Source of the DNA: Escherichia coli phage vB_EcoS_Ace
Strand: one strand, 5' to 3'
Sequence record: MT833283.1
Length of the DNA stretch: 64,000 nucleotides
Positions 8,427 through 43,247 of the stretch are shown in pieces. Below the pieces are notes generated by a model. The model did not search any database. It saw only the letters and a program-made list of their open reading frames with translations, and was not told the DNA's origin. Each line of letters starts with the position of its first letter. The stretch's first letter is position 1. A program made the translations under genes and the position numbers.

Positions 8427-8771
8427 ATGGTAATTTACGAGGGCAATCGCTTTGTAACTAATTGCCGTCCGGCATTATTAGCAAACTATTTAAATCAGCT
8501 TTCACCAGTTTATAAAGGCGTGGTTAATATCTATGAGGGCAAAGCACATTATAAAATTTCTGCCGTTGTCGCCCGTGAACTAGCGTTTCAATTTTTAACT
8601 TTTGGGTCTTGTGACGTTCAGGTTATGGGGGAAGCGTTAATAGCGGAAAATGAAAATGAATTTATTGACATTTTCCGCAAAGTATGTACAGAGCGCCTGA
8701 TTATGAAAGGCGCGTATATTCAATCAACCGCTGAAAGTATCGAAACAGCGTTTCGAAAGGTGGCGCAATGA
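8427..8771 (+). CDS. hypothetical protein (114 aa)
   Basis: in-frame ATG at 8427 immediately after upstream stop; track ORF 8388..8771 trimmed to this ATG. Confidence 0.5.
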   Translation: MVIYEGNRFVTNCRPALLANYLNQLSPVYKGVVNIYEGKAHYKISAVVARELAFQFLTFGSCDVQVMGEALIAENENEFIDIFRKVCTERLIMKGAYIQSTAESIETAFRKVAQ

Positions 8772-9079
8772 CTAGAAATGAAGCTGTTAAAGCTATGTTA
8801 GAAGGTAAAAAAGTAACTCATCGTTATTTTTCCATGCATGAATATTTATTCATGAAATATGAAGTGATCACCACGGAGGATGGTTATAAATTTAATCATG
8901 AATTTTATAGCCGTGAAATGTTTAATGATGGCTGGTAGCTTTATTATGAATAGCTGGTGGCGAAAAACACAAAGCCATAAATCTAATAATACCGCTGGGA
9001 AACATTCCCAGCGTTTACGATTTGGTAATGGCTTCACAATGATATTGATAATCATTCTCATTCTAGGAGCAATGGCGTT

Positions 9080-15152: not shown

Positions 15153-15316
15153 TTTATTACGTTCTGCCTGTGCTTTAATTTCAGGGCTAATATATACTTG
15201 TTTAAGAGCTTATTGCTTTTCACGTTGGTTGAGCATATAGTCTGTTACACCGAGCGTGATAGCTACAGAAACTAGGGCATTCAGCCCTAGTACAAGCAAG
15301 AATTTTCCGTTAGTCA

Positions 15317-35337: not shown

Positions 35338-35668
35338 CTACATTTTTCAGAAATTTGATGCCTTTCTTACACTTCTTATACCACCACGTCTTAGAGTTTT
35401 GTCGATTATGAACGCTTGAGATCTTCGCCTCATTAAAGTGCTTCAAAAGCATATAATCAGCCCCTAATTGCTCAAGTGGAATGTGATCTCCACTAGAATC
35501 ATAAACATAAGGCCGTTGATTAGCTCTGTAGTGATATACCTTATTAATCCGGCGTTTAAGCAAAGGACTAGTACAGTATATAAAGAAGTTTTTAGGATGC
35601 ATCAGCATCTCCTTCAAAATTGGTGCACCCCGTTGGTAACGATCCAACCTCTCAAGCTCTTCAGGCAA
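35330..35668 (-). CDS. hypothetical protein (112 aa)
   Basis: ORF in track. Confidence 0.45.
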   Translation of the reverse strand: MPEELERLDRYQRGAPILKEMLMHPKNFFIYCTSPLLKRRINKVYHYRANQRPYVYDSSGDHIPLEQLGADYMLLKHFNEAKISSVHNRQNSKTWWYKKCKKGIKFLKNVVA

Positions 35669-35786
35669 GCGCTAATCCATCTCAGCTAAAGGTGCAAATA
35701 TTGGCAAACCTACTAGGACTCGAACCTAGACCGTACGGTTTTGGAGACCGACATGCTGTCCAGTAACACTCTAGGAATGCAGAAAT

Positions 35787-38197: not shown

Positions 38198-38494
38198 TTA
38201 CTGAACCTTGCACTGATATACTTGTTTGATACGTGTCACTGACTTCTTAGTTGGATTGATAGAAGAACCCTGCCACCAACGTGATTCTGAGCTGAGAACA
38301 GTACCAGGAACAGCTTGTTCTTTTGGCAGAACAATATCAAAACACTGTTCACCCATATTATCTTTAATGTGCGACCAAATGTCTAGAGTAAATCGTTCTA
38401 GCTTATTACAAACTTGAACTTGACAAAGTTCCTGTTGTGGAGCAGCAAATACAGAAGTAGATACTAGAGTCAATGCAAGTACAATGCGTTTCAT
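38198..38494 (-). CDS. secreted protein
   Basis: track ORF trimmed to Met after SD; N-terminal signal peptide. Confidence 0.5.
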   Translation of the reverse strand: MKRIVLALTLVSTSVFAAPQQELCQVQVCNKLERFTLDIWSHIKDNMGEQCFDIVLPKEQAVPGTVLSSESRWWQGSSINPTKKSVTRIKQVYQCKVQ

Positions 38495-38524
38495 ATTTGA
38501 TTCCTCTCTCAAATTTATAAATAT

Positions 38525-38553
38525 ATTATACAGAAATTTTCTATATTAAGCAA
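38525..38553 (-). promoter_or_regulatory. sigma70 promoter (TATAAT / TTGCTT)
   Basis: minus strand; 17-bp spacer. Confidence 0.6.
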
Positions 38554-38571
38554 GTGAAAATTTCTGTATAA

Positions 38572-38591
38572 TAGCCCTCGCTTAGAGGGCT
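38572..38591 (-). terminator. GC hairpin, possible terminator after pnuC
   Basis: stem AGCCCTC/GAGGGCT immediately 3' of pnuC stop; U-tract weak. Confidence 0.35.
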
Positions 38592-38600
38592 ATAGCTACT

Positions 38601-39293
38601 TTATTTGTTAACGCGTACAAAGTATCCTTTATATGCCCCAAGAATAGAGTTACCTAAAAATACTAGCCACATTGCTAGGATTGCATAAGATGCACCTGTA
38701 GATTGAGCAGTTACAAGCCAAATGTATACAGTACCAATGTTAATAGCAATCCAGATCAGCCACTGCTCGGCATACTGCTTAACCATAAGCCACATAGCGA
38801 TCACACTACCTACCGCAGTAAATGCATCCAACATTGGGAATGGATCAGCCGTAGTAGTTAAGAAACTACCATACCCTAACGTGGCTACTGCTAGAATCCC
38901 TAGAGTCAGCAGAGCTTGGACTTTAGTCAGAATCTTAGTTGGAACATCTGGCAGATTACTTGGCTTATTTTTATGCCATAAGTACATTCCATAAAACTGC
39001 ATAGGAACGTAGTATAGCAGGTTTAGTGCAGCGTTACCATAAAGATCTTCGTTTAAAGCTGTAATACCATAGGTAAGAACACCAACTAAGCCCCAAATAT
39101 AGTTAGAAACACGTCCTTTAGCAACCAAAATAACACAAACTACGTTGGTTATCGCAGTAGCCCAATCTAGAGGTGTACCATTATAGTTAGCTAAACTAAT
39201 GAAGGCAACCGCTATGAACAGCCACAGATATTCCAGAGGTTTCCAGTTTTTAAAGTCATTTACGAGATAGTTAGTCATATTAAAACTCTCCAA
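38601..39293 (-). CDS. pnuC: nicotinamide riboside transporter (PnuC family)
   Basis: 230-aa multi-pass membrane protein with PnuC-like conserved blocks; immediately downstream of NadR-like gene. Confidence 0.6.
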   Translation of the reverse strand: MESFNMTNYLVNDFKNWKPLEYLWLFIAVAFISLANYNGTPLDWATAITNVVCVILVAKGRVSNYIWGLVGVLTYGITALNEDLYGNAALNLLYYVPMQFYGMYLWHKNKPSNLPDVPTKILTKVQALLTLGILAVATLGYGSFLTTTADPFPMLDAFTAVGSVIAMWLMVKQYAEQWLIWIAINIGTVYIWLVTAQSTGASYAILAMWLVFLGNSILGAYKGYFVRVNK

Positions 39294-39903
39294 CGTTAAA
39301 GTGATGAATCAGCCAGTCTACTGCGTTTACTGCTTCGTCCATACGAACTTTGTAGTCCGGGGAGTCGATGTACACAGTACGCCCTTCAGGGAACTGATTT
39401 GGAAATTCTTTCTTCATCTGCTCGAACAGTTCAGAAGTAATTGAACGATCGGAGTTAATACGTAAACCATCATCTACCCACTTGACAGTGGGCGCTAGAA
39501 CAATTACTAAATCGTAATGTTCTTCTTTTGCAATTGCTGTAACCACAGGGTTCTTACGATGTTCATAAAGTCTGTGGTAGAACTCAGTAATAAAAGCATT
39601 TGTATCCACAAACATGATCTTATTTGCAGTACGTTCTGCCTCAAACTCTAGCTCTTTGTGTCTGAACGCAATTTTACTATAATCTTCGCTGGTAAGCAGA
39701 TTTTCGTTACCAACTAGATCAACTTCACAATACGTTCGACCATATTCTTCTACCCACGAAGTGTTGTATAGCTTCGCAAGGTATTTTGTTAAAGTAGTCT
39801 TTCCTGAGCTTTCAGTCCCAATGATTACAACCCTACGCACGTAATCTTTACGAACTACGCTAGGAAGAAACTCCCAATACTTCATAAGATCATTACGAAT
39901 CAT
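39280..39903 (-). CDS. nadR: NadR-like protein, C-terminal ribosylnicotinamide kinase domain (part after in-frame TAG)
   Basis: Walker A GTESSGKTT; collinear with E. coli NadR C-terminal domain; same frame as 40117..40335 across a single TAG. Confidence 0.6.
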   Translation of the reverse strand: MIRNDLMKYWEFLPSVVRKDYVRRVVIIGTESSGKTTLTKYLAKLYNTSWVEEYGRTYCEVDLVGNENLLTSEDYSKIAFRHKELEFEAERTANKIMFVDTNAFITEFYHRLYEHRKNPVVTAIAKEEHYDLVIVLAPTVKWVDDGLRINSDRSITSELFEQMKKEFPNQFPEGRTVYIDSPDYKVRMDEAVNAVDWLIHHFNVGEF

Positions 39904-40116
39904 TGTAGCTGAGATTGGAACACGAGTCCGATCAGAATCTACAATATAATGACCAAACTTCGGCAGATATTTCTTATATTCTGCATCATAGTCTAGTTCG
40001 CTAGAGAAAATGGTGATCTCAGGTAAATGTCCGTAATTTTCATTAAGGATTCTAGCATATTCCGGCCAACCATTCGGATATTCAGGAATATCATCTTCAA
40101 TAATATACTCTACCTA

Positions 40117-40335
40117 AACGTGCTCAATATCCGCGTAAGTTTGTTCTAACCAACGAAGACGATTCTTTAACTGTAATACTTCCTGATCACGTGTGTTCTG
40201 CTTATCCAGCCAACGATTATCATGACTAACTACAATAATAACTCGTTCACACATAGTTGCTGCTGTATTTATTAGGTTAATATGGCCACGCGTTAAGGGT
40301 GCGAACTTACCAATTACTAGACCAGTCTTAATCAT
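40117..40335 (-). CDS. nadR: NadR-like protein, N-terminal NMN adenylyltransferase segment ending at in-frame TAG
   Basis: nucleotidyltransferase motif GKFAPLTRGHINLI; start set at Met after SD because the track ATG at 40386 lies inside the promoter. Confidence 0.55.
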
Positions 40336-40365
40336 GTTTGATTCCTCTCTCAAATTTATAAATAT

Positions 40366-40394
40366 ATTATACAGAGAATTTAGCATTCAAGCAA
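40366..40394 (-). promoter_or_regulatory. sigma70 promoter (TATAAT / TTGCTT) for nadR-like/pnuC
   Basis: minus strand; 17-bp spacer. Confidence 0.6.
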
Positions 40395-40598
40395 ACGAAT
40401 TTTTAAACTTTTTAGTGGAAAAATCTCAGGGCATTTAATGGTAGCACGTTGTTGCAGCAACAATAGTATGCGATTCTAAAGAATTAAATACTAAAGACCT
40501 TAGTTGAATAACTTATGGGCTTTTCTTTTGCCTTAAATACAGAAAAGCCCGCGCTCTCGGAGGGAACGCGGGCTTGGTTCGAAGATTACGTGTAACTA

Positions 40599-41543
40599 TT
40601 ACTTGTTACGCATATCCATGATCATTTGACCATCGTAGCCAGTACCAACAACAGTCTGCGGTACACCACCTTGGTATTTTTCAGCACGAAGCATTTCAAC
40701 TTCCAGCTGCTTCCAACGAATCATTTCAGGAGTAATGGTACGTTGCAGCGCGGCGTTAGCTTCAGCTTCTTTCTTAGCTGCGTACAGTTTAGCATCTGCG
40801 TCACGTTCGTTAGCTACTGCCATGTTTTCACGAGCAGAACGATCAGCTTCAGCTTGCTTAACTTTCTGCTGTGCTTCTTGTTCAACACGAGCCAATTCAG
40901 CTTTTGCAGCGTTAACTTGTTCTTCACGAACTTTAGTGTTCTGTACCTGTTCCATGATTACCGGTGGCAGAGTAATATCCTGAAGGAATACTTGCTTAAC
41001 CGTGTAACCATAAGGACGCGCGTACTCTTCTACCTCTTGCTGAATAGCAGTTTGCAGTTGAGCCTGAATCTTAGCGTCGAACAGATCTTGTGCTTTTGGT
41101 ACGGACTTACCAAACTCACGAATCGTAGACAGCATCTTCTCTTCAACGTACTTGTTCAGAGCTTGATCCTGAGTACCTGCGTTAACACGGTTCATAGGAG
41201 CTTTAGCACCATCAAACTGCAACATAACGGTAATGTCAACAGTAGACTTAAACTTATCCTGGCTAGGAACCTGAAGTTTATCCAGTTTCATGGAAATATC
41301 TTTCGTACTAAAAGTATCAAAAGAAGCAAATGGGTTAACAATATGGAAGCCTGGCAGTACAGGGTTCGGGCTAACTTTACCCAGGAAGGTCTGAGTCTTT
41401 ACAGTACCATCCTGAACAACTGTGTAGGAATTGAGAGCCAGAATAAGAGCACCAAGACCAACTACAGCACCAACACCCCAACGTTTAATAGTACGAATTA
41501 CTTTTTGCTCAGAAGTCAGTTCTTTAGTGTTTTTAGTAAACAT
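40599..41543 (-). CDS. SPFH/band-7 (prohibitin/HflK-like) membrane protein
   Basis: N-terminal TM, SPFH-like core, long Ala/Glu/Gln-rich coiled-coil C-terminus. Confidence 0.6.
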   Translation of the reverse strand: MFTKNTKELTSEQKVIRTIKRWGVGAVVGLGALILALNSYTVVQDGTVKTQTFLGKVSPNPVLPGFHIVNPFASFDTFSTKDISMKLDKLQVPSQDKFKSTVDITVMLQFDGAKAPMNRVNAGTQDQALNKYVEEKMLSTIREFGKSVPKAQDLFDAKIQAQLQTAIQQEVEEYARPYGYTVKQVFLQDITLPPVIMEQVQNTKVREEQVNAAKAELARVEQEAQQKVKQAEADRSARENMAVANERDADAKLYAAKKEAEANAALQRTITPEMIRWKQLEVEMLRAEKYQGGVPQTVVGTGYDGQMIMDMRNK

Positions 41544-41554
41544 ATATTTCCTTA

Positions 41555-41755
41555 TTATTTAGAAGAGTTAGCTACTACAGTTACTTTAGTTGCAGAAATA
41601 AACAGGCCAGCATCCACAGCAAATTCAGGAGCTTTGATATCTCCATTATGAAATATGACTATACCGGAGATTACCTCAAATGCTAGTGCTGTAACATCGG
41701 TGGTATTTACTTGTGAATGTTCACCTACTACTTTTACTATATATCGTGTTTTCAT
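41555..41755 (-). CDS. hypothetical protein (66 aa)
   Basis: ORF in track. Confidence 0.4.
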   Translation of the reverse strand: MKTRYIVKVVGEHSQVNTTDVTALAFEVISGIVIFHNGDIKAPEFAVDAGLFISATKVTVVANSSK

Positions 41756-41781
41756 TTTATTTTCCTAACAGTTAATAAAAT

Positions 41782-41856
41782 TGGCCGAGGTGACAGGATT
41801 TGAACCTGCATAAAGGAATTTAGAAGACTCCTGCCTATCCCTTAGACTACACCCCG
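41782..41856 (-). tRNA. tRNA-Arg (UCU)
   Basis: anticodon arm AGGAGT-CTTCTAA-ATTCCT; isolated from main cluster. Confidence 0.55.
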
Positions 41857-41864
41857 AAAGTTAA

Positions 41865-42374
41865 TCATTTAATGACTTTATTCAATTTAGTTTGACTTTC
41901 AACAGCTTCTTTAGCAGATTTCTCAGCATTTTTAGCTGCACGTTGTGCTTTAGAGTCAATCAATAGCTTGTCATACTTGATATTAACGAACTCTTTAATA
42001 TCGTGGTAGAAACGTTGATGTGCCATGTATTCTTGTGCATCTGCGTCATAACAGCGCATATAGAAGTAATCACTAGGCTCTCCGCGAAGTGTACTCTCTA
42101 GAATCTGCGGGCGATAACGACGTAATGTATCTTTCGCCATTTTTACTTCATCAGTTTCTTCACCAAGCTGAACTAGGTGATAAAGACGAGTATTGTCGAT
42201 GTAATCCAAAGCTACGCTAAAGTATTCACCTTCTCGAAGATTATATCCTGTAATCTCACTCATTTTCTCGCGAGCTTGATCAAGTGTCAATCGTTCAGAG
42301 AAATGTGCTATATGCAGAATACGAGGGCAACACATTTCTTGAAGATCAAAGATACAAGTTGTTCCTAGATTCAT
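41865..42374 (-). CDS. hypothetical protein (169 aa)
   Basis: ORF in track; lies downstream of the ~870-nt ORF-free transcribed region. Confidence 0.5.
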   Translation of the reverse strand: MNLGTTCIFDLQEMCCPRILHIAHFSERLTLDQAREKMSEITGYNLREGEYFSVALDYIDNTRLYHLVQLGEETDEVKMAKDTLRRYRPQILESTLRGEPSDYFYMRCYDADAQEYMAHQRFYHDIKEFVNIKYDKLLIDSKAQRAAKNAEKSAKEAVESQTKLNKVIK

Positions 42375-43247
42375 ATTGATTCCTTTTGTTAGGTATTTTT
42401 AAGAACTCTCGAAAAAGCTCTTAAAGATACCCGGCGGTAGGTAGGGTCAGCCCCCTCAGATTAAGCTCTGCAGCCCTTCCGTCAGACAATATCCTCCAGT
42501 TTAAGTCAGGGTGACTTTGTGGTTATGTTCTCCGTATGTGAAGAACTCGGTTAGGCTTAGGTCATGACTCCCAGCCTACTGCTGCCACTCAACAGGAATT
42601 ATCGCGAATTACCTGTACTATTGGGCACCATTAGTGACATCTCTCATGCCAGCATTTCCCACTCTCATATTCACGCGGTCTGGTAGAATCACACCTCCGA
42701 TTTTCGATGCGAAGCTGGATGCCTAGTCTCTATGTTAAACGGGGCACACACTAGGCAGTGATCCCGAGTTCCGAGTTTGGTTGAGGCCGTCAGGTTTCCT
42801 CGTGGTTTAGCTGTTTCGATTCTAACCTAATACTGATCAGGCGGCGTACCTCCTGAACCGTCATAGTATGTACTCCAGCAGCGAATGCTTATCCGGTATA
42901 AGCCCGAGTTATCCGATTCTTTCCGACCGCAGGATTCGAACCTGCATCTTCCACCAGTTACGGTTTAATATTACCGTTTATACTAGGACGGCAGTGTTAT
43001 CACATAAGTCAGTTCGACACCCCACTAACATAAACTAGAGAAGAGTTTACGAGATTTCGGGACAGCTCCCGTGTTTTCCGCAGATTTTCAGTTCCCTATC
43101 AATAGCAATAAGCGTTAGCTCGTAGCCTCTCTCAGAGTACTTACTAGTCTCCAACTCACCGACTCTATTCAGTGGAATAGCTATCCTAGTAGGAATCACT
43201 AAACTCACTCAGCGTAATCGGCTCGCTGTTCTCTACTTTATGAATTT

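What the first reader, a model, noticed from the sequence alone, without database searches (positions are those of the whole stretch)
40114..40116. In-frame amber (TAG) codon splitting an otherwise intact NadR-like gene
Translation of the minus strand from 40335 to 39280 is a single frame collinear with bifunctional NadR (NMN adenylyltransferase motif GKFAPLTRGH, then ...EYPNGW..., then Walker A GTESSGKTT of the ribosylnicotinamide kinase domain), interrupted only by TAG at 40114-40116. Similarity continues on both sides of the stop. Possible explanations are a laboratory amber mutant, a recent pseudogene, suppressor readthrough, or a sequencing error. None of the ~28 tRNAs I folded has anticodon CUA.
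Basis: seen in the sequence. Interest (0 to 1): 0.65.

Follow-up and report, generated by a model that had tools for sequence, protein, structure and literature searches.

The report
Nonsense-mutated phage NAD-salvage (NARP3) gene
A T5-like phage carries a single-base change that puts a stop codon early in its NadR-like NAD+-rebuilding enzyme, part of a recently described anti-defence gene pair; it is an ordinary, very recent knockout of a dispensable accessory gene and not a recoding event.

Summary
On the minus strand, 40335..39280 is one 351-codon frame interrupted only by TAG at 40116..40114 (codon 74). The window is a T5-like phage (Demerecviridae, Epseptimavirus). The gene is the orthologue (347/351 aa) of Bas30_86, the NadR-like NMN adenylyltransferase/ribosylnicotinamide kinase of the NARP3 anti-defence operon (Sci Adv 2026; PDB 9X6H/9X6F). 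The adjacent gene is its PnuC partner.

All 16 relatives examined have an intact gene with Ser (TCG/TCA) at codon 74. A near-identical metagenome scaffold differs from the window's nadR by exactly this one base (C>A).

The allele is not a one-off assembly error, because 100%-identical DNA including the TAG occurs in Logan assemblies of several ERR78885xx runs.

No tRNA has anticodon CUA (29 ARAGORN calls plus 2 Rfam-only). TAG also serves as a normal terminator in this window. The stop removes every NMN-site residue shown to be essential and the whole kinase domain, and no in-frame start codon occurs before Met145.

The module is absent from close relatives, so it is dispensable. Two further private nonsense alleles (TAG at 8936..8938, TAA at 15210..15212) occur in other accessory genes, and the amber bias is not significant (P about 0.29).

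Verdict: a real, recent loss-of-function mutation. It is ordinary and of low interest.

The parts
39280..40335 (-). nadR-like gene (orthologue of NARP3 Bas30_86; NMNAT domain 1-166, RNK domain 167-351), now a nonsense pseudogene
   Evidence: phrog_3462, E=4.9e-153. Identical to PDB 9X6F at 347 of 351 residues; the four differences are residues 34, 73, 168 and 260. Codon 74 is TAG here.
40114..40116 (-). Premature amber codon (codon 74; TCG>TAG, C>A on the coding strand, G>T on the + strand at 40115)
   Evidence: All 16 relatives have TCG or TCA (Ser). The sister scaffold L022 differs from the window's nadR only here.
40114..40335 (-). Truncated product actually encoded (73 aa). It keeps the TRGH motif and K10/S37, and lacks E80, P84, G89, F110, S112, D115, V139, I141 and the whole RNK domain.
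   Evidence: The essential residues are taken from PMC13464706.
39280..39903 (-). Residual downstream ORF from Met145 (207 aa, RNK domain only). Met145 is the first in-frame ATG/GTG/TTG after the stop, and no Shine-Dalgarno motif lies upstream.
   Evidence: In-frame starts occur only at codons 145, 151 and 166. The sequence upstream of Met145 is GACTCGTGTTCCAATCTCAGCTACA.
38601..39278 (-). Intact pnuC (nicotinamide riboside transporter, NARP3 Bas30_87 orthologue). Its ATG lies 1 nt after the nadR TAA, and it has its own GGAG Shine-Dalgarno motif.
   Evidence: NMN_transporter, E=6e-43; phrog_1880; full-length match, no stop.
40332..40404 (-). nadR promoter and leader (-35 TTGCTT, extended -10 TGTATAAT, SD GAGAGAGGA). 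This is the upstream copy of the 73-nt direct repeat that brackets the cassette.
38491..38563 (-). Downstream copy of the 73-nt direct repeat (promoter and leader of the next gene). The perfect 39-nt core is 38496..38534.
   Evidence: 82% identity, spacing 1841 nt.
40545..40575 (-). Terminator-like hairpin (12 bp, 8 GC, T-run) after the upstream SPFH/band-7 gene. It isolates the cassette transcriptionally.

Best explanation
The TAG is a genuine, evolutionarily very recent single-nucleotide nonsense mutation (Ser74 TCG>TAG) in the NadR-like enzyme gene of the phage's NARP3 NAD+-reconstitution operon. In a non-suppressing host, translation ends after 73 residues. The product lacks most of the NMN/NAD+ site and the entire ribosylnicotinamide kinase domain, and nothing downstream can be initiated before Met145. 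The enzyme is therefore dead, and the two-gene pathway (PnuC imports nicotinamide riboside, NadR-like converts it to NMN and then NAD+) is non-functional even though pnuC is intact. The phage tolerates this because NARP3 is an accessory counter-defence cassette, needed only on hosts with NAD+-depleting immunity. Shown here: the mutation, that it is private to this lineage, that it is reproducible in independent runs, that the cassette is dispensable, and that no phage suppressor tRNA is present. Inferred: loss of activity (from published mutagenesis of the orthologue), possible polar reduction of pnuC expression, and relaxed selection as the reason the allele persists.
For: (1) TAG at codon 74, with full-length homology on both sides. 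(2) All 16 relatives have TCG/TCA and no internal stop. The metagenome scaffold L022 is 1055/1056 identical in nadR, differing only at this base, and shows 4 differences across window 42716..39049. (3) The allele is absent from 50,697 phage records, IMG/VR, JGI metagenomes and GTDB genomes. The wild-type pattern was found as a positive control. (4) Identical DNA with the TAG occurs in Logan assemblies ERR7888529_4927 (a contig seen in 4 samples) and ERR7888521_6659. (5) The orthologue Bas30_86 needs both domains: E80A/P84A/G89A, F110A, S112A/D115A, E230A and D275A abolish NAD+ restoration, and neither gene works alone (PMC13464706). (6) There is no in-frame start between codons 75 and 144, and no SD before Met145. 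(7) The cassette is missing from the close relative SUT_E1620 and from L026. (8) No tRNA has anticodon CUA, and TAG terminates 6 of 104 gene-like ORFs.
Against: No read-level data could be examined, so allele frequency within the phage population is unknown. The supporting runs belong to one accession series and may share a stock or a source, so they may not be fully independent. Loss of function is inferred from the orthologue and was not measured. A host suppressor, or low-level natural readthrough, could still give some full-length protein. Residue 74 aligns with Phe in H. influenzae NadR, so many inserted residues might be tolerated there. Two other private nonsense alleles in the same 64 kb hint at something lineage-wide that this explanation does not address, such as passage history or selection for knockouts.
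Confidence: 0.8

Rival explanations
1. The amber is phenotypically suppressed. The phage was isolated or propagated on a host carrying an amber suppressor (for example supD, supE/glnV or supF laboratory E. coli), so a full-length, active NadR-like enzyme is still made at reduced level and the allele is effectively conditional.
For: Two of the three private nonsense alleles are amber. CAG>TAG would be restored exactly by a Gln-inserting suppressor, and TCG>TAG by a Ser-inserting one. Position 74 is not conserved between phage and bacterial NadR (Ser vs Phe).
Against: The third private nonsense allele is ochre (TAA). The amber excess is not significant: P(TAG | nonsense)=0.355 and P(>=2 of 3)=0.29. 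No suppressor tRNA lies in the window, which holds the phage's whole tRNA cluster. Nothing is known about the host.
Confidence: 0.07
2. The strain is a deliberately generated laboratory amber mutant, made by mutagenesis and selection.
For: T5-like phages have a long history of amber genetics. There are several nonsense alleles in one genome, and the lineage was sequenced repeatedly in one run series.
Against: Classical amber mutants are selected as conditional lethals in essential genes. Here all three hits lie in dispensable accessory genes: the NARP3 cassette is absent from relatives, one allele is only a 5-residue C-terminal truncation of a 61-aa protein, and one is ochre. The changes are C>A, C>T and G>T, which is not a single mutagen signature. 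The nearest wild-type relative is an environmental metagenome scaffold.
Confidence: 0.05
3. The TAG is a sequencing or assembly error, and the real genome has TCG.
For: It is a single-base difference from an otherwise identical relative, and no reads were available to check it.
Against: The same base is assembled independently in Logan contigs from ERR7888521 and ERR7888529, the latter contig being seen in 4 samples. It is a substitution in non-repetitive, non-homopolymer sequence. No frameshifts were seen in 83 conserved CDSs. The other two nonsense alleles are likewise reproduced in those runs.
Confidence: 0.04
4. The TAG is decoded on purpose, by programmed readthrough or stop-codon reassignment, or the gene is a functional split with an N-terminal peptide plus an RNK-only enzyme from Met145.
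For: A Logan gene caller reported a 351-aa product across the TAG. An RNK-only protein could in principle make NMN for host enzymes.
Against: The stop is not conserved, since all 16 relatives have a Ser codon. No tRNA has anticodon CUA. Only 2 of 83 conserved CDSs contain an in-frame TAG, and those two sites correspond to different amino acids (Ser and Gln). TAG is used as a terminator. No start or SD exists for residues 75-144. Published data show both domains in one protein are required. The 351-aa call is a software choice and carries no biological weight.
Confidence: 0.02

Closest known systems
NARP3 (Bas30_86 NadR-like enzyme + Bas30_87 PnuC) of Escherichia phage TrudiRoth/Bas30; Yan et al., Sci Adv 2026 (PMC13464706); PDB 9X6H, 9X6F
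   Same: Same two-gene operon in the same order, in the same phage genus. The enzyme is 347/351 identical with Ser74 restored. It has the same domain layout without an HTH, and the same catalytic residues are encoded.
   Different: This copy has TAG in place of Ser74, so the enzyme is truncated at 73 residues. The pathway is predicted to be inactive although pnuC is intact.
Bacterial NadR (H. influenzae 1LW7; E. coli 8X7F)
   Same: NMNAT plus RNK bifunctional architecture. The (H/T)xGH, ISxTxxR and Walker A motifs are present. E=4.8e-55 and 9.2e-52.
   Different: The phage protein lacks the N-terminal HTH repressor domain. It serves as a phage counter-defence and not in host NAD homeostasis. 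It is interrupted here.
Loss of accessory or counter-defence cassettes in T5-like phages (for example SUT_E1620 and the SRR30609869 contig, which lack NARP3)
   Same: Same outcome, a phage lineage without a working NARP3. This shows the module is dispensable.
   Different: Those relatives lack the DNA altogether, possibly through the 73-nt flanking direct repeat. Here the DNA is complete and only one base is changed, so the event is much younger and reversible.
Classical amber (conditional-lethal) mutants of T4/T5/BF23
   Same: A single-base change from a sense codon to TAG, which would be suppressible in sup+ hosts.
   Different: Those lie in essential genes and were obtained by mutagenesis and selection. 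This one lies in a dispensable gene, is accompanied by an ochre allele, and shows no sign of selection for conditional lethality.

Membership tests
NadR-type bifunctional NMNAT/RNK enzyme (phage NARP3 Bas30_86 type) | N-terminal nucleotidyltransferase domain with the (H/T)xGH motif | tested here: met
   PLTRGH at residues 13-18. Pfam CTP_transf_like over 7-147, E=4e-7, 30.8 bits against a cut-off of 21.
NadR-type bifunctional NMNAT/RNK enzyme (phage NARP3 Bas30_86 type) | Second nucleotidyltransferase signature ISxTxxR | tested here: met
   ISATMIR at residues 141-147, read directly from the translation. It aligns with VSATKIR of 1LW7.
NadR-type bifunctional NMNAT/RNK enzyme (phage NARP3 Bas30_86 type) | C-terminal ribosylnicotinamide kinase P-loop domain (Walker A) | tested here: met
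   GTESSGKT at residues 172-179. Pfam AAA_28 over 168-314, E=1.3e-31.
NadR-type bifunctional NMNAT/RNK enzyme (phage NARP3 Bas30_86 type) | No N-terminal HTH domain (the phage type, as against canonical NadR) | tested here: met
   The protein starts at the NMNAT domain. It aligns 1-351 with Bas30_86 residues 1-351, and the paper states that Bas30_86 lacks the HTH.
NadR-type bifunctional NMNAT/RNK enzyme (phage NARP3 Bas30_86 type) | Operon partner: an adjacent PnuC-type nicotinamide riboside transporter | tested here: met
   38601..39278 (-) is NMN_transporter, E=6e-43, and phrog_1880. It starts 1 nt after the nadR stop.
NadR-type bifunctional NMNAT/RNK enzyme (phage NARP3 Bas30_86 type) | Uninterrupted reading frame encoding both domains in one polypeptide | tested here: not met
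   TAG at codon 74. The next in-frame start is Met145. By descent the gene belongs to the family, but it is a pseudogene.
NadR-type bifunctional NMNAT/RNK enzyme (phage NARP3 Bas30_86 type) | NR-to-NMN-to-NAD+ activity and rescue from Sir2-HerA/DSR1 defence | not testable with these tools
   Shown only for the orthologue Bas30_86/87.
Stop-codon reassignment or phage-encoded amber suppression (TAG read as sense) | A tRNA with anticodon CUA | tested here: not met
   29 ARAGORN tRNAs plus 2 Rfam-only tRNA-like elements, none with CUA. None in 10 relatives either.
Stop-codon reassignment or phage-encoded amber suppression (TAG read as sense) | In-frame TAGs spread over many genes, and TAG avoided as a terminator | tested here: not met
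   2 of 83 conserved CDSs have an in-frame TAG. 6 of 104 gene-like ORFs end in TAG.
Programmed translational readthrough | The stop codon is conserved at the site in relatives | tested here: not met
   All 16 relatives carry TCG/TCA (Ser) at codon 74.
Classical conditional-lethal amber mutant | The mutation lies in a gene essential for plaque formation on sup0 hosts | tested here: not met
   The whole cassette is absent from the viable relative SUT_E1620 and from L026.
Classical conditional-lethal amber mutant | Documented origin by mutagenesis and selection on sup+/sup0 hosts | not testable with these tools
   No provenance is available for the window or for the ERR78885xx runs. No paper cites these accessions.

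The most novel reading that the evidence does not exclude
The knockouts may be adaptive. On this reading the three private nonsense alleles (NARP3 nadR, a 61-aa phrog_3474 protein and a 132-aa membrane-anchored phrog_13127 protein) were selected, because these accessory proteins or NARP3 activity are sensed by, or costly in, the host on which this lineage circulates. That would make the NadR-like enzyme a liability or a trigger for some defence system. A weaker variant of the same idea is that the amber alleles act as host-dependent switches, expressed only in suppressor-carrying hosts.
Probability: 0.05. Interest if true: 0.5.

Novelty: already known. Interest (0 to 1): 0.2.

Why it matters
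The practical value is mainly for annotation and phenotype prediction. This phage should not be counted as NARP3-positive, and it is predicted to be sensitive to NAD+-depleting defences (Sir2-HerA, DSR1 and the like) that its close relatives overcome. Together with the sister scaffold that differs by one base, it offers a naturally occurring, near-isogenic pair for testing NARP3 function in its native phage context. The published work used heterologous expression with T7 and lambda. The finding also illustrates how quickly counter-defence cassettes are lost, here by point mutation and in relatives by loss of the whole repeat-flanked cassette. It reveals no new mechanism.

Tried and rejected
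1. Phage suppressor tRNA. ARAGORN plus an Rfam scan of the whole window, and inspection of the two extra tRNA-like hits, found none with CUA. The same locus in 10 relatives gives UCA or degenerate forms, never CUA.

2. Genome-wide recoding. A scan of 112 annotated CDSs of MK907267 and 293 gene-like ORFs of four relatives against the window found only three real in-frame stops. Most raw hits were antisense or alternate-frame ORFs.

3. Amber bias. The probability computed from codon usage and the observed substitution spectrum is not significant.

4. Mutational signature and sequence quality. The 918 window-private substitutions are dominated by transitions, like ordinary divergence, and are uninformative about errors.

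5. The first 35-mer test for allele privacy was confounded by a neighbouring synonymous difference at codon 77. It was repeated with TAG+TAC and with degenerate patterns.

6. Exact-product look-ups of the 73-aa and 207-aa fragments found nothing, because the Logan caller had read through the TAG. The PnuC look-up succeeded.

7. A suspected frameshift in the 172-aa gene at ~12.4-12.9 kb turned out to be a mosaic junction.

8. Literature searches for the run accessions, and for nonsense or amber mutations in Epseptimavirus, gave nothing useful.

9. Apparent post-inactivation drift. K168R and four synonymous changes looked private against five relatives, but all are shared with the sister scaffold L022. 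There is therefore no sign of decay after the stop.

Full report
**1. The observation**

Reading the minus strand from 40335 to 39280 gives a single frame of 351 codons plus TAA. It contains one internal stop, TAG at 40116..40114, which is codon 74. With the stop masked, Pfam finds a cytidylyltransferase-like domain over residues 7-147 and an AAA_28 kinase domain over 168-314. The gene immediately downstream (39278..38601) is a PnuC-type transporter.

**2. What the window is**

Megablast places the window in T5-like phages of the genus Epseptimavirus (Demerecviridae). The best records are about 97% identical, and no record in the 50,697-genome collection is identical. The window contains the phage's tRNA cluster. 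ARAGORN tRNAs. Rfam adds two weak tRNA-like elements: a Phe-GAA-like one at 35624..35695 and a degenerate one at 42921..42992. None has anticodon CUA.

**3. What the gene is**

With Ser restored at codon 74, the protein matches PDB 9X6F/9X6H at E=3.9e-240 and differs at only four residues. That structure is Bas30_86 of Escherichia phage TrudiRoth, the NadR-like enzyme of the NARP3 pathway described in Sci Adv 2026 (PMC13464706). [quoted passage not shown] This restores NAD+ depleted by Sir2-HerA or DSR1.

- Neither gene works alone.
- Mutants in either domain fail: K10A/F11A, E80A/P84A/G89A, F110A, S112A/D115A, E230A and D275A.
- An earlier preprint had already predicted this phage NadR-PnuC operon.

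The gene pair in the window is thus a known system.

**4. What relatives have at codon 74**

Five relatives fetched first have an uninterrupted 351-codon gene with TCG or TCA (Ser) at codon 74. A later census of 16 relatives gave the same result, with no internal stop in any. The lesion is a single C>A change on the coding strand.

The most informative relative is L022, the metagenome scaffold YOKO23-1_SAMN32383957_METAG-scaffold_85:
- Its nadR differs from the window's at exactly one of 1056 positions, this one.
- Over window 42716..39049 there are only four differences in all.
- Changes that had looked private against the first five relatives, including K168R, are shared with L022.

So nothing has accumulated since the stop arose, and the mutation is very young.

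**5. Is the allele found elsewhere, and is it real?**

The TAG allele is absent from the phage collection, IMG/VR, the JGI metagenomes and the GTDB genomes. My first 35-mer test was confounded by a neighbouring synonymous difference and was repeated properly. The wild-type pattern was recovered as a positive control.

An exact-protein look-up of the window's PnuC found two Logan assemblies of public runs whose DNA is 100% identical to window 40366..38505, including the TAG:
- ERR7888529_4927, a contig seen in four samples;
- ERR7888521_6659.

A random consensus error in one assembly is therefore excluded. The Logan gene table lists the gene as one 351-aa product. That reflects the caller reading through TAG and is not evidence of readthrough.

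**6. Controls: how unusual is an in-frame stop in this genome?**

I compared 112 annotated CDSs of MK907267, and gene-like ORFs of four relatives, with the window. This revealed three genuine premature stops and no frameshifts:
- nadR S74* (TAG);
- Q57* (CAG>TAG, 8936..8938) in a 61-aa phrog_3474 gene that is otherwise identical to the relative;
- E36* (GAA>TAA, 15210..15212) in a 132-aa phrog_13127 gene whose nearest relatives (99.1-99.3% identical) have GAA.

The same CDS set gives zero in-frame stops in the two relatives tested. Both extra alleles are also present, in 100%-identical DNA, in Logan contig ERR7888521_3181 and in three to four other long contigs. The lineage therefore carries three fixed nonsense alleles in accessory genes.

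Two of the three are amber, but this is not significant. Given the window's codon usage and substitution spectrum, P(TAG | nonsense) is 0.355 and P(>=2 of 3) is 0.29. TAG also terminates 6 of 104 gene-like ORFs. The two in-frame TAGs replace different amino acids (Ser and Gln), and the third stop is ochre. Together these argue against any TAG-specific decoding.

**7. Consequences for the protein and the operon**

The 73-residue product keeps the TRGH motif. It lacks E80, P84, G89, F110, S112, D115, V139 and I141 and the whole RNK domain, all of which are required in the orthologue. The first in-frame ATG/GTG/TTG after the stop is Met145, and it has no Shine-Dalgarno motif. The NMNAT domain therefore cannot be reconstituted from two pieces. 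An RNK-only product is possible in principle but unsupported.

pnuC is intact, with its own GGAG motif, and starts one nucleotide after the nadR stop. Reduced pnuC expression through lost coupling or Rho polarity is an inference. Since both genes are needed, the pathway is predicted to be off.

**8. Why the phage survives it**

The cassette is dispensable. SUT_E1620, the closest relative over 24 kb, lacks window 38512..40516 entirely. L026 has other genes at the site, and several relatives have insertions between the SPFH gene and nadR.

The cassette is a self-contained unit, laid out as an upstream terminator (40575..40545), its own promoter and leader, then nadR and pnuC. It is bracketed by a 73-nt direct repeat of that promoter and leader, at 40332..40404 and 38491..38563, with a perfect 39-nt core. 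This repeat explains why the k=31 Logan contigs break at 40366 and 38505. It also offers a recombination route for cassette gain or loss.

**9. Verdict**

This is a real, very recent, private nonsense mutation that turns the NARP3 NadR-like gene into a pseudogene (confidence about 0.8).

| Rival explanation | Confidence | Main objection |
|---|---|---|
| Host-suppressor-dependent expression | about 0.07 | Cannot be excluded without knowing the host |
| Deliberately made amber mutant | about 0.05 | The hits lie in dispensable genes |
| Sequencing error | about 0.04 | Largely excluded by the independent runs |
| Programmed readthrough, recoding or functional split | about 0.02 | Contradicted by non-conservation of the stop and the absence of a CUA tRNA |

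The system is already known and the lesion is of an ordinary kind. Its main use is correct annotation, and it provides a natural near-isogenic pair for testing NARP3 in its native phage.

Noticed in passing
window 8936-8938 (+), in gene 8768-8953: A second private in-frame amber: CAG>TAG (Q57*) in a 61-aa gene of unknown function (phrog_3474), just after the T5 AP-endonuclease-like gene. It is the only difference from MK907267 across 186 nt. The allele is absent from the phage collection and present in Logan ERR7888521_3181 and four other contigs.
   Followed up: yes
window 15210-15212 (-), in gene 15317-14919: A third private nonsense allele: GAA>TAA (E36*) in a 132-aa gene with an N-terminal membrane anchor (phrog_13127). 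The nearest relatives SE3 and S.Kent 1-2-1 (99.1-99.3% identical) have GAA. It is also present in the Logan ERR78885xx contigs. Three fixed nonsense alleles in 64 kb, against none in two relatives, is an unexplained excess.
   Followed up: yes
window 40332-40404 and 38491-38563 (-): A 73-nt direct repeat (82% identical, perfect 39-nt core, spacing 1841 nt) brackets the NARP3 cassette. It consists of the promoter (-35 TTGCTT, extended -10 TGTATAAT), the leader, the SD and the ATG. The junction in SUT_E1620, which lacks the cassette, reads like a nadR-type leader fused to the next gene (AAAC-ATG-AAACGC). This suggests cassette loss or gain by recombination between promoter copies. It also explains the Logan contig breaks at 40366 and 38505.
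   Followed up: partly
window 42921-42992 (-); homologous loci in L008 44244-44317, L019, L022, L024, L028, L026, L027: A variable tRNA-like locus. In the window it is a borderline Rfam tRNA (29.7 bits) that ARAGORN does not call, with a degenerate anticodon arm. In five relatives the same locus is a tRNA with anticodon UCA, called 'SeC', which would be opal-suppressor-like. In others it is 'Asn(att)', undetermined or not called. The T-stem shows compensatory changes between the window and MK907267.
   Followed up: partly
window 35624-35695 (-): A tRNA-Phe(GAA)-like gene missed by ARAGORN (Rfam 33.4 bits; mismatches in the anticodon stem). It corresponds to the annotated tRNA-Phe of relatives.
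   Followed up: partly
L015 32-1087 (Logan ERR7888529_4927): The public gene call for the identical TAG-containing nadR is a single 351-residue product. The caller read through the amber, presumably by choosing an alternative code on a short contig. Such calls can hide pseudogenes in large protein collections.
   Followed up: no
L019-L028, region between the SPFH/band-7 gene and nadR (window ~40340-40600): An insertion hotspot. Several relatives carry two extra minus-strand genes (~138 and ~330 aa) or an HNH endonuclease between the SPFH gene and nadR. L026 has unrelated 155-aa and 96-aa genes in place of NARP3.
   Followed up: no
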